Shown here in pieces: positions 28,901 through 31,900 of a stretch of DNA of 64,000 bases (its first letter is position 1; each line of letters begins with the position of its first letter). The notes under the pieces are model-generated. The model worked only from the letters and a program-made list of their open reading frames with translations. It was not told the origin of the DNA and ran no database searches. This stretch comes from the human T2T-CHM13v2.0 reference genome, Homo sapiens: assembly GCF_009914755.1 (NCBI RefSeq), contig NC_060935.1. The stretch is one strand, 5' to 3'. Position numbers and translations under genes: made by a program.

Positions 28901-31900
28901 AGAGAGGAGGGCCAGCAGGACAGGAGCCTTTGAGATGCTGCTCTATCCCCGGGGCTGGGGTCAGGCCAGGTCGCCGCCTGAGCAGAGGCTGCAGCCTGGG
29001 CAGTCCCGGGCTTCTGAGGAGGAACTCTAGCAGACAGGGCCTGGATACCTCTTGAGGTAGGTCCCTCCTGCCCTGGCTGGGCATGGAGGGCAGGGCAGGG
29101 TGCCCATGCTGGGCTGCCACATGCACCGGGCCACTGGGCCTCCCCCCAGCTTCGGTAGGCTCTGCTGCCCCAAGCGTGGGCAGCGAGAGGGTGCCAGGCT
29201 GGTTGCGTGTACATGTGTGAGTGCGGAGGCTGCTTGAGGCCTCTCTTCCTCCTGGCTCCTGGCAGCTGCCCATGCATTCTCCTTCCCCATCCCACCTGCA
29301 CTGCCGGCTGCGCTGTCGCCTGCTCACACCGTCCCACCCGCACCGCCGGCTGCACTGTCACCCGCTCACACCGTCCCACCTGCACCGCCGGCTGCACTGT
29401 CACCCATTCACACCATCCCACCTGCACCACCGACTGCACTGTCACCCGCTCACGCCGTCCCACCTGCACCGCCGGCTGCACTGTCACCTGCTCACACCTC
29501 TCCCCGAGCCCCAGGGATTCTGCTTGACTCTGAGCCCCCAAGATGAAGGGCCCATCCTCTGGGTGGCTTCTGGGGCCTCCCGTGGGGTCCTTCGGATCCT
29601 GGGCACCCTTCAGTCACCCTCACTTCACAGATCATGAAACTGAACTTTGGGCTGAGCTTACCGGCCCTGGCTGCAGCCACCAACCCTGAGTGGGAGGCTC
29701 CTCAGGGCCAGGGAAGGTGCCCGGGCCTTGTCCACCTGCAGGTGTTGGGCCAGTGTGGTGCCCTCTCCCAGCCTGTTTCCTCCTCTGTAAAGTAGTGGTG
29801 TGGCCCTTCATGGGGTCAGGTGGGAGAGCAGAGTTTGGAGGGCCCAAGGCTCCTCAAGACCCAGCCTGGGCAGTCTCAGAGATATCCCTCTGCACCGTCA
29901 GCCACTCTGAGCCGCCTGTAGTGCCCTTTCTCCTCCTCAACCCTTCCAGGCTTTTAAGCCAAACTGAAACACCACCTCCTGCTTGAAGGCTGCCTTGCTT
30001 CTTCCTAACCTGGAGGGCTGTCCTGCTCTGACTTCCTTTGATGGCATGGAGCATGCTGGCCGGACCTCGAGCTACTGGAAGACAGGGCTGGCATCGGTCG
30101 GCTTGCCACTGCCCACCCAGGCCAGGCACTCAGTGCTGAGACTCTGAGAGGCCAGAGAGCCAGGGATGCCCATGGGGGTGAGCTAAGTGGGGTCTGAGGA
30201 GTTGAGGGCAGCCCGGCTCACCCCTCCTCCCCAGCTCCCACTTGTTGGGTCCGTGCAGATGCAGAGAGATGGCTCCGATCTGGTCCCCACCTGGCAGGGT
30301 CTCCGGCTGTCACCTGAGTTCAGGACCAGCACCAGGATCTGCAGTGGGCCCCTGGCTGGGCACACCTCAACCCAGCCTCCCCCTACCCCTGGCCCCCCAT
30401 AAGCCTCCTCCTCCTGGGCTTCCAGGCTCTGCTGGTCAGACCTCCCTCCCTGCCCAACGGGAATGTGTTTTCCCAGGGGACGCTGCTGTCCACCAGGAGC
30501 TCTGTGGCCTGGGATTTGAGGAGTGCCTGGGGTCAATCCCCCAGGCTCACCAGTGCTACTTAACAAATGGGCCCAAGAGAAGGAAGTGCAGCCCCCGGAG
30601 GAGGGGCAGAGCCCCTGCCTGGCTGTGCGGTGGCTCACCCCCTTGTCACCAGGGGCTCGGCCATGAGCATCCGTCCAGCGGGCCCAGCACCAACTGCAGC
30701 CCCAGGTGAGCAAGCCGCACTCAGGAGGCACTGAAACCGTGTGGGCCCAGGCTCGGGGCCAGTCCCTGTGGACCTGGGGAGGAGACACTGAAGCCGCGTG
30801 GGCCCAGGCTCAGGGCCAGTCCCTGTGGACCTGGGGAGGAGGCACTGAAGCCGCGTGGGCTCAGGCTCGGGGCCAGTCCCTGTGGACCTGGGGAGGAGAC
30901 AGTGGGGAGGGGACCTCACTTGCGGTGGTCAGCCAGTGGGTTGGTGGCATAAGGACCCGTCCCTTTGAACTCCCTTGGAACTTGTCCTGATGGGGGCTGG
31001 GCAGAGGGCAGCAAGAGTCCCTTGTCCAGCTAAGGGGAGCCACCAAGGTGAGCTACATGAAGCAAGGCTGACACGTGTGCACTAATACACACCCCCTCCA
31101 GGACACAGACCCAGAGGCCGCTGCACCCCACCCACCCACCACACCCACACACACACATGCACACACACACGACCACCCGGGACAGTACTGCGCTCACCAC
31201 CACTGCCATGATCTCTTCTCTGCAGCCTCCAACAGCTCGGACTTCCCCAGTCCCAGCCCTGCAGGCCAGGCAGACTGCCCCCTACCCACTCCCTGTTGGA
31301 TAAAGGAGTGAGCCAGGCTCAGAGAAGCTGTGGGTGAAGAGACTTCAAGGCCACTCAGCCGGGCATGATGAGCCCGGGTCCCTGGGTCCCTCCTCCACCC
31401 GCATCACCCCACCCCTTTCCCGGGGACCCCTTGGGTGTCCTGCCATGTCAGGTGCAGGGCTGGGAGAGGCATTGCAGGCAAAGTGCTGTGTCCTCAGTGA
31501 TGAACCCTGAAGGGCCATGCTAGGTGCCCGCAGCTGCCAGGGAATAAATTCAATGCAGTTTACATCCATTAAAAATGGTGCTCTGGGCCAGTGGGAAAAC
31601 GTGTCCCCCCTGCCCCGTCGCCCCCCACCCCTGCCCCAGCGATTCTCCTTGTCTACACCCAGTGCGAGCCCAGGGGCTCTGCATGTAGTCCCATAACACC
31701 ATTTTCTCCAGGTCTGGCTGTACCCAGCCCCTGCCAGAATGCGGCTTCTGGCTGGCAGGGTCAGGCCCTGGGCTGACCTACCCCCAATGCCTCCCTGCCA
31801 AGTCTGCCCTTCTAGGCACCTGGGAGTCTGCCCTGTGCCTCCTGCCTGCCCCTGGGCAACTCGGGGCTCTCCCAGGGCCAGCTCGGGCAAGGCAAGTGTT

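What the first reader, a model, noticed from the sequence alone, without database searches (positions are those of the whole stretch)
28990..29062. Fossil coding exon: the human copy of the LSP1 'S37' N-terminal exon appears inactivated by ATG>CTG and a 1-nt deletion
Seen: from a CTG in strong Kozak context (agcCTGg, A at -3, G at +4) the frame reads [17 protein letters not shown], then ACC TCT TGA (stop) just before a strong donor AG|GTAGGT. Adding one base at codon 18 gives ...GLD-x-LL-R and a phase-2 junction that fits exon 2 (AG|G CCC ACT GCT CAG TGG). Recalled: the mouse stromal LSP1 isoform S37 begins MNGPALLRRNASKRGLEKLLR, which has the same 21-codon length and 12 identities, including LLRRN and LLR. 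Inference: this lineage kept the exon and its donor but lost the coding capacity, including an RRxS kinase motif. Transcripts from this promoter would have to start at a downstream ATG (30269, or Met63 in exon 2), or make a 19-aa CTG-initiated uORF.
Basis: partly seen in the sequence, partly recalled or inferred. Interest (0 to 1): 0.85.

Follow-up and report, generated by a model that had tools for sequence, protein, structure and literature searches.

The report
Broken S37-type first exon of LSP1
The human LSP1 gene still carries and transcribes an ancient alternative first exon that encodes a 21-residue leader in many other mammals, but in this human genome it can no longer code for protein.

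Summary
At 28996 a CTG opens a frame reading [19 protein letters not shown], which stops at TGA 29053-55. The exon ends at 29056 before GTAGGT.

A profile of the 21-residue leaders of LSP1 isoforms from 16 non-primate mammals hits one place in the 64-kb window, 29002-29049 (30.1 bits, E 1.8e-8; next best 8.8 bits). All 16 leaders start with Met and are exactly 21 residues. Two macaques have [20 protein letters not shown], joined to exon 2.

The human copy has Leu (CTG) at the Met position. It is also one base short after codon 18, so the final Leu-Leu-Arg lies in another frame that is closed upstream by TAG 29028-30. The exon contains no ATG.

RefSeq already treats it as a non-coding first exon of NM_001242932.2, spliced to 30259, with the CDS starting at 30269.

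- **Frame loss:** it arose after the split from macaques.
- **Start-codon loss:** its age is unclear, because the owl monkey Aotus also has Leu there and uses an upstream ATG.
- **Not available:** ape genomes, population data and the mouse protein.

This is a new example of a known kind of event, of moderate interest.

The parts
28959..29056 (+). Fossil S37-type alternative first exon of LSP1. In RefSeq it is the non-coding first exon of NM_001242932.2.
   Evidence: The leader profile has its only hit inside this exon. The exon holds 0 ATG in 98 nt.
28996..28998 (+). CTG (Leu) at the position of the ancestral ATG, in the context agcCTGg.
   Evidence: Sequence. tblastn aligns the Met of the macaque, Tupaia and Cricetulus leaders to this codon. 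Column 1 is Met in 16 of 16 non-primate species.
28996..29049 (+). Frame A: 18 codons that still read like the leader, [18 protein letters not shown].
   Evidence: Identity to the macaque leader is 83.3% over 18 columns, including one gap.
29047..29051 (+). Site of the frame break. There is a net loss of one base between codon 18 (Thr) and the Leu-Leu codons. Base 29049 would have to be read twice to follow the macaque peptide.
   Evidence: One search gives frames A and B. Macaque and Aotus read ...GLDTLLR in one frame. All tblastn alignments stop at 29046/29049. The exact missing base cannot be named without primate DNA.
29053..29055 (+). TGA stop that ends frame A inside the exon.
29028..29030 (+). 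TAG that closes frame B (the frame in phase with exon 2) upstream. Only QTGPGYLL plus the split Arg codon can be read into exon 2, and there is no start codon for it.
29057..29062 (+). 5' splice donor GTAGGT, retained and in use.
   Evidence: Sequence. RefSeq joins 29056 to 30259.
30259..30705 (+). The next exon in the only RefSeq transcript that uses the fossil exon. The annotated CDS starts at ATG 30269. An out-of-frame ATG at 30259 opens a 47-codon upstream ORF that ends at 30400.
43981..44118 (+). Common exon 2. Its first base completes a codon begun in the first exon (phase 2). ATG 44114 (Met63) is the CDS start of the other alternative-first-exon variants.
16943..16995 (+). Coding part of the leukocyte first exon (53 nt). 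It is used here as the reference for the phase that exon 2 requires.

Best explanation
Window 28959-29056 is the human orthologue of the alternative first coding exon that gives LSP1 its 'S37-type' N-terminus in other mammals. That N-terminus is a 21-residue basic leader that replaces the acidic leukocyte N-terminus and is spliced in phase 2 to common exon 2.

In this human genome the exon has lost its reading frame in two ways. The start position is CTG instead of ATG. One base is also missing, net, after codon 18. As a result the frame from the old start runs into TGA at 29053, and the last three leader codons lie in a frame closed by an upstream TAG.

The exon itself survives as a transcribed, spliced, non-coding 5' leader. 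RefSeq joins its unchanged donor to exon 30259-30705, where translation is annotated to begin at 30269. If it were joined directly to exon 2, the first in-frame ATG would be Met63 (44114), after three out-of-frame ATGs.

- **Shown:** orthology, both differences, the absence of any ATG in the exon, and the RefSeq splice.
- **Inferred:** that the human state is derived. This follows from the state in 16 non-primate species and two macaques.
- **Also inferred:** that the frame loss happened after the human lineage split from Old World monkeys, and that no S37-type LSP1 protein is made in humans.
For: - **Sequence and frames:**
- **RefSeq structure:** the exon occurs only in NM_001242932.2, is non-coding, and the CDS starts at 30269. 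The other four alternative-first-exon variants start at 44114.
- **Leaders in other species:** of the 138 LSP1-related proteins held, my own regex sort gave 22 S37-type, 47 leukocyte-type, 43 with other first exons, and 26 with no exon-2 motif in their first 140 residues. The 22 are 17 non-primate proteins from 16 species, all exactly 21 residues before exon 2, plus 2 macaques (20 residues) and 3 Aotus isoforms (33 residues).
- **Invariant columns in the 16 species:** M1, L7, R8, G15, L16, L19 and R21. S12 is conserved in 15 of 16.
- **Unique mapping:** the profile hit at 29002-29049 scores 30.1 bits with E 1.8e-8 among 2314 pieces, and the next best is 8.8 bits. All four tblastn leaders have their best hit there.
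- **Frame break:** macaque and Aotus read GLDTLLR in one frame, whereas human needs two frames.
- **No rescue within the exon:** it holds no ATG. Reading, the only GT after the CTG is at 29003, which would give the wrong phase.
- **Single copy:** the exon DNA occurs once in this genome.
Against: - No ape genome, second human haplotype or population data could be consulted. A polymorphism or an assembly error is therefore not excluded, and the events cannot be placed within hominoids.
- Aotus has Leu at the canonical start position and a predicted upstream ATG. The ATG>CTG change is therefore either convergent or older than catarrhines, with a reversal in macaques. In the second case CTG alone need not have been inactivating.
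- Apart from the published mouse S37 isoform, the leaders used here are computational gene models. For S37 I saw only the title, in reference lists.
- The mouse protein was not among the 120 of 507 hits listed, and clustering at 90% identity can hide isoforms.
- No ape S37-type model was seen, but that absence is weak evidence.
- A human 29056>43981 junction was neither shown nor excluded.
Confidence: 0.85

Rival explanations
1. The CTG is a working non-AUG start codon. On this view the exon now acts as a short upstream ORF (19 codons, CTG 28996 to TGA 29053) that tunes translation of the downstream LSP1 ORF, rather than being a mere relic.
For: The CTG has A at -3 and G at +4. The frame stays open and leader-like for 18 codons. 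Aotus also has Leu at this position in a model that still codes. That would fit a period of CUG use or tolerance in anthropoids.
Against: No translation data were available. The Aotus model starts at an upstream ATG, not at the Leu. With only 61 nt and two differences, the leader-like reading is equally expected from a recent loss. This reading does not conflict with the fossil reading, because the leader still cannot be joined to LSP1.
Confidence: 0.15
2. The two differences are an artefact of this assembly or a rare haplotype, and most humans carry an intact S37-type exon.
Against: Two independent differences lie within 61 nt. RefSeq's curated transcript NM_001242932.2 places its CDS start in the next exon and treats this exon as non-coding. 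That would be odd if the reference mRNA had an ATG ORF reading into LSP1.
Confidence: 0.04
3. The ancestral exon was non-coding and the coding leader was gained in other lineages, so the human copy never coded.
For: Nothing beyond the fact that most leaders are gene predictions.
Against: Met at column 1 and an exact 21-residue length occur in 16 of 16 non-primate species. By my own knowledge of taxonomy these come from seven orders: rodents, bats, a tree shrew, colugos, a rhinoceros, a bear and a hippopotamus. Macaques have an intact leader as well. Independent gains of the same peptide in all these lineages are not credible.
Confidence: 0.01

Closest known systems
Mouse LSP1 isoform S37, the stromal/mesenchymal isoform made from an alternative first exon. 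I know it here only from the title of Misener et al. 1994, seen in reference lists, and from recall.
   Same: It occupies the same place in the gene, between the leukocyte first exon and common exon 2. The peptide is of the same family. It has the same kind of donor feeding exon 2.
   Different: The human copy has no ATG and is one base short, so it cannot encode the leader. The mouse sequence itself was not retrieved, and the paper is not held.
Macaque LSP1 isoforms X5 and X3 (P0022 Macaca thibetana, P0021 M. fascicularis), which are gene predictions.
   Same: They are the closest intact relatives. Identity to the human frame-A reading is 83.3% over 18 columns, with Met aligned to the human CTG. 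The ending is the same ...GLDT followed by LLR.
   Different: The macaque leader has Met at the start, a single continuous frame and a direct junction to exon 2. It is one residue shorter than the human reading, with one Leu fewer in the Leu-Leu pair.
Human LSP1 transcript variant NM_001242932.2 (RefSeq).
   Same: It is the same exon, 28959-29056, already annotated as a non-coding first exon.
   Different: The annotation says nothing about the exon's coding ancestry. That is what this analysis adds.
Lineage-specific loss of one coding exon or isoform while the gene as a whole stays intact. This is a general, well-known class, named here from my own knowledge.
   Same: A start-codon change and a frameshift are confined to one alternative exon, and the gene and its main isoform are untouched.
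   Different: Here the disabled exon is still transcribed and spliced, as a 5' untranslated exon.

Membership tests
S37-type alternative first coding exon of LSP1 | Lies on the gene's strand between the leukocyte first exon and common exon 2. | tested here: met
   Exon 28959-29056 lies between 16882-16995 and 43981-44118. The leader profile has its only hit there.
S37-type alternative first coding exon of LSP1 | Encodes a peptide alignable to the conserved leader (L7, R8, G15, L16, L19 and R21 invariant). | tested here: met
   Profile hit of 30.1 bits, E 1.8e-8. The human reading shares 11 to 16 of 21 positions with the 16 species, but only when two frames are read.
S37-type alternative first coding exon of LSP1 | ATG at the first codon. 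| tested here: not met
   The codon is CTG at 28996-28998. Met is present in 16 of 16 non-primate species and in 2 of 2 macaques. The exon holds no ATG.
S37-type alternative first coding exon of LSP1 | A single open frame from the start to the donor, ending in phase 2 so that it reads into exon 2. | tested here: not met
   The distance from the start position to the donor is 61 nt instead of 62. TGA lies at 29053-55 in the start frame, and TAG at 29028-30 in the frame that fits exon 2.
S37-type alternative first coding exon of LSP1 | Donor spliced directly to common exon 2. | not testable with these tools
   RefSeq shows only 29056>30259. No RNA-seq junction data were available.
S37-type alternative first coding exon of LSP1 | Used in stromal or mesenchymal rather than leukocyte cells. 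| not testable with these tools
   In passages of PMC4085616, human myoblasts mainly use NM_001013254 or NM_001013253. Their first exons start at window 34664 and 32500. The paper's Table S1 could not be seen.
Non-coding 5' leader exon | Transcribed and spliced, with the CDS starting in a later exon. | tested here: met
   RefSeq NM_001242932.2 has its first exon at 28959-29056 and its CDS starting at 30269.
Non-AUG (CUG) upstream ORF | Ribosomes initiate at the CTG. | not testable with these tools
   Only the sequence context (A at -3, G at +4) and the 19-codon frame can be stated.

The most novel reading that the evidence does not exclude
The human lineage did not simply lose the S37 leader. 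It exchanged N-termini on the same promoter.

The old 21-residue basic leader carries an L-x-R-x-x-S site that is conserved in 15 of 16 species. On this reading it was disabled, and the retained exon now serves as the 5' leader for a young, proline-rich 145-residue N-terminus encoded by exon 30269-30705.

The pattern in Old World monkeys would be reciprocal. Macaques keep the old leader. The Colobus, Cercocebus and Mandrillus fragments that match the new exon do not begin with Met, and Colobus has Ile where human has the start Met.

If true, non-blood-cell LSP1 differs in its regulatory N-terminus between humans and the mouse and macaque models.
Probability: 0.2. Interest if true: 0.6.

Novelty: new member of a known kind. 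Interest (0 to 1): 0.45.

Why it matters
LSP1 is studied outside blood cells, for example in endothelium, largely in mice. A paper read in passages reports LSP1 in both mouse and human endothelial cells (PMC2213033).

The leader is conserved in 16 non-primate species and in macaques. If it cannot be made in humans, any role of that leader will not carry over from mouse to human. That includes its conserved serine, which sits in a basic-kinase-type setting. Human non-leukocyte LSP1 must then start at other codons, either Met63 or the 30269 extension.

The exon is also a clean, small example of how an exon can lose its coding role yet persist as a spliced 5' leader. Comparing ape genomes would date the two lesions in an afternoon.

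Tried and rejected
**Reaching full-length LSP1 proteins.** No stop-free frame around any coding exon is long enough for the length window of the protein word search. I therefore queried the 146-residue open frame 51017-51454, which spans the last two coding exons and the in-frame intron between them. I then used a 241-residue macaque fragment from that result (P0003) as the next query.

**Third protein search.** This used P0022 residues 1-40 and gave only 11 candidates. It added no ape or other primate S37-type protein.

**Paralogous copy of the exon.** I looked for one that might preserve an older state and found none. The only other DNA hits were purine-rich low-complexity stretches on chromosome 2. 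A whole-genome protein search with P0022 found the C-terminal LSP1 exon copies on other chromosomes but did not report the short first exon at all, so it says nothing about that exon.

**A recollection that proved wrong.** I recalled that ENST00000311604 was the long isoform and was about to use a preprint's thyroid expression figure for it. PMC4085616 equates it with NM_002339, the lymphoid isoform, so I dropped that argument.

**Papers not held.** Misener 1994 and Pulford 1999 are not held, so I saw nothing of them beyond reference-list entries.

**Is the human loss of the S37 leader already in print?**
- One search found 9 papers. One search found 33, of which 25 were listed.
- I opened four papers for 'S37': PMC4436777, PMC11311815, PMC4999498 and PMC11627463. 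Two of them held it only in a reference-list entry. In the third the word-start matches were a phosphosite label beginning with those characters. In the fourth it did not occur in the 300,000 characters held.
- I found no statement about a human S37 exon. Subscription journals and supplementary files were not searchable.

**Rescue by another donor.** I rejected this. The only GT after the CTG is at 29003, which gives the wrong phase.
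Full report
**What is in the sequence**

The finding's coordinates hold up. The context is agcCTGg, with the CTG at 28996-28998. The frame from that codon reads [19 protein letters not shown] and stops at TGA 29053-29055. 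The exon ends at 29056 and is followed by GTAGGT.

From the CTG to the exon end is 61 nt, which is 20 codons plus one base. Common exon 2 begins at 43981 and needs two bases from the exon before it, because the coding part of the leukocyte first exon is 53 nt.

The frame that is in phase with exon 2 ends in Leu-Leu plus the split Arg codon. It is closed by TAG 29028-29030 just upstream and has no start codon. The whole 98-nt exon contains no ATG.

**What the annotation says**

RefSeq uses exon 28959-29056 in one transcript only, NM_001242932.2. There it is a non-coding first exon joined to 30259-30705, and the CDS starts at 30269. The four other alternative-first-exon variants start their CDS at 44114, the Met63 codon of the main isoform.

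The non-coding status is therefore already in the annotation. The coding ancestry of the exon is not.

**Bringing in relatives**

The protein word search only sees proteins of similar length, and no LSP1 exon gives a long enough open frame. I therefore took two steps.

- **First step:** I queried the 146-residue open frame 51017-51454. This gave 18 hits among 19 candidates, with 49 sample-only candidates left out.
- **Second step:** I queried the 241-residue macaque fragment P0003. This gave 507 hits at E ≤ 1e-5 among 540 candidates. The best 120 were listed, and 418 sample-only candidates were left out.
- **Third search:** I queried residues 1-40 of macaque P0022. This gave 11 of 11 candidates, with 1 left out.

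In all, 138 proteins were held. I sorted them by what precedes the exon-2 motif, using a regular expression of my own. The result was 22 S37-type, 47 leukocyte-type (starting MAEA), 43 with other first exons, and 26 with no exon-2 motif in their first 140 residues.

**The leader family**

The 22 S37-type proteins break down as follows.

- **Non-primates:** 17 proteins from 16 species (species names). They are three bats, seven rodents, a tree shrew, two colugos, a rhinoceros, a bear and a hippopotamus. Every one has exactly 21 residues before exon 2.
- **Macaques:** two proteins with [20 protein letters not shown], which is 20 residues.
- **Aotus:** three isoforms with a 33-residue N-terminus that contains the leader.

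For the column counts I used 16 proteins, one per species, and dropped the second Cricetulus protein, P0119. Columns M1, L7, R8, G15, L16, L19 and R21 are invariant. S12 is present in 15 of 16.

The conserved site therefore reads L-x-R-x-x-S. From my own knowledge of kinase motifs, this is the setting preferred by several basic-directed kinases, including MAPKAP kinase 2. The abstract of PMC2213033 calls LSP1 a major downstream substrate of p38 MAP kinase. That this serine is phosphorylated is my conjecture.

The mouse protein itself was not in my lists.

**Orthology and chance**

I built a profile from the 16 non-primate leaders and searched all 2314 stop-to-stop pieces of the six-frame translation of the window. 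The window contains the whole LSP1 gene and its neighbours. The search gave a single hit at 29002-29049, with 30.1 bits and E 1.8e-8. The next best domain scored 8.8 bits.

By tblastn, the macaque, Aotus, Tupaia and Cricetulus leaders each have their best hit at 28996 (Aotus 28984) to 29046/29049. The starting Met of the macaque, Tupaia and Cricetulus leaders aligns to the human CTG. Every alignment ends at codon 17 or 18.

The exon DNA is single-copy in this genome.

**The two lesions**

Human has Leu at column 1, where 16 of 16 non-primate species and both macaques have Met.

Macaque and Aotus read ...GLDTLLR in one frame and continue into exon 2. Human reads ...GLDT in the CTG frame and Leu-Leu-Arg in the frame shifted by one, with base 29049 shared between the two. 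The simplest account is a net loss of one base at 29047-29051. Without primate DNA I cannot say which base.

Read across both frames, the human exon matches 11 to 16 of 21 positions in the 16 species.

**Dating**

The frame is intact at the 3' end in macaques and in Aotus. The one-base loss therefore falls on the human lineage after its split from Old World monkeys.

The start codon is less clear. Aotus has Leu at the canonical position, and its models begin at an upstream ATG. The first residues after that ATG (ARSPP) correspond to a different human frame. Aotus must therefore differ from human by an indel just upstream of the leader.

Two scenarios are possible. Human and Aotus may have lost the ATG independently. 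Alternatively, it was lost in an early anthropoid and regained in macaques. Each scenario needs two changes.

No ape S37-type model appeared. However, only 120 of 507 hits were listed, and isoforms can be hidden by 90% clustering, so this absence is weak evidence.

**How the locus works now (inference)**

The exon survives as a spliced 5' leader.

- **In NM_001242932.2:** the first ATG is at 30259. It is out of frame and opens a 47-codon ORF ending at 30400. The second ATG, at 30269, is the annotated start.
- **If joined directly to exon 2:** three out-of-frame ATGs (44032, 44040 and 44088) precede Met63 at 44114.

In passages of PMC4085616, human myoblasts mainly use NM_001013254 or NM_001013253, and the lymphoid isoform is NM_002339/ENST00000311604. 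This suggests that most non-blood-cell LSP1 transcription in human starts at first exons further downstream (window 32500 and 34664). I could not see that paper's supplementary isoform table.

**Rivals**

- **Working CUG upstream ORF:** possible and untested. It does not restore the leader to LSP1.
- **Assembly error or rare haplotype:** unlikely, given two differences in 61 nt and RefSeq's own non-coding annotation. It was not tested.
- **Gain of coding in other lineages:** contradicted by the breadth of species that carry the same 21-residue leader.

**Novelty**

This is a new example of a known kind of event, in which one alternative coding exon is lost while the gene stays intact.

I found no statement of it, or in the passages opened. 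The two most relevant older papers are not held.

Interest is moderate. It bears on how far mouse work on non-leukocyte LSP1 transfers to humans, and the timing is easy to settle with ape genomes.

Noticed in passing
window 34481-34554 (+), donor GT at 34555-34556: An intact ATG ORF of 24 codons plus 2 bases ([24 protein letters not shown], then AG|GT) ends in the phase that exon 2 needs. It matches the predicted first coding exons of orangutan (88% over 25 columns), chimpanzee and marmoset LSP1 isoforms. It lies between RefSeq exons 34039-34456 and 34664-35207 and is not part of any RefSeq exon listed for this window.
   Followed up: partly
window about 27700-28950 (+): A purine-rich tract of about 1.2 kb lies directly upstream of the fossil exon's start. 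GC skew reaches 0.74 and AT skew 0.87, and there are short GGGA/GGAG-type tandem arrays and a 44-nt unit repeated twice. It is the only part of the 401-nt query that found anything elsewhere in the genome, namely low-complexity hits on chromosome 2.
   Followed up: partly
window 30259-30705 (+): The annotated start at 30269 is preceded by an out-of-frame ATG at 30259, which opens a 47-codon ORF. Old World monkey fragments homologous to this exon do not begin with Met: Colobus has Ile aligned to the human start Met, and Cercocebus and Mandrillus start with A and R. The marmoset model starts at a different ATG, and one stretch of it (AISIRPAGP) resembles a different human frame (AMSIRPAGP) more than the annotated one. 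The 145-residue extension therefore looks evolutionarily young or unstable.
   Followed up: partly
window 28962-28984 (+): The Aotus models begin at an upstream Met followed by ARSPP. In human that peptide is encoded in the frame shifted by one from the leader frame. Aotus must therefore carry an indel relative to human just before the leader, which brings an upstream ATG into frame.
   Followed up: partly
window 51017-51454 (+): The intron between the last two coding exons (51209-51367, 159 nt) is in frame and free of stops. The two exons and the intron therefore read as one 146-residue open frame. A low-quality bat protein (P0001) seems to include translated intron at the same place.
   Followed up: no
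G000 chromosomes 1, 2, 3, 5, 9 and 13 (places listed): Many partial copies of the C-terminal LSP1 exons (about residues 184-261 of the macaque query) are scattered over other chromosomes, some with stops inside. None includes the first-exon region. Several ape 'LSP1-like' or 'striatin-like' proteins probably come from such copies.
   Followed up: no
P0021 and P0022 (macaque leaders) compared with window 29011-29016: The macaque leader is one residue shorter than every other leader, with a single Leu where the others and the human reading have Leu-Leu. This is an in-frame three-base loss specific to that lineage.
   Followed up: no
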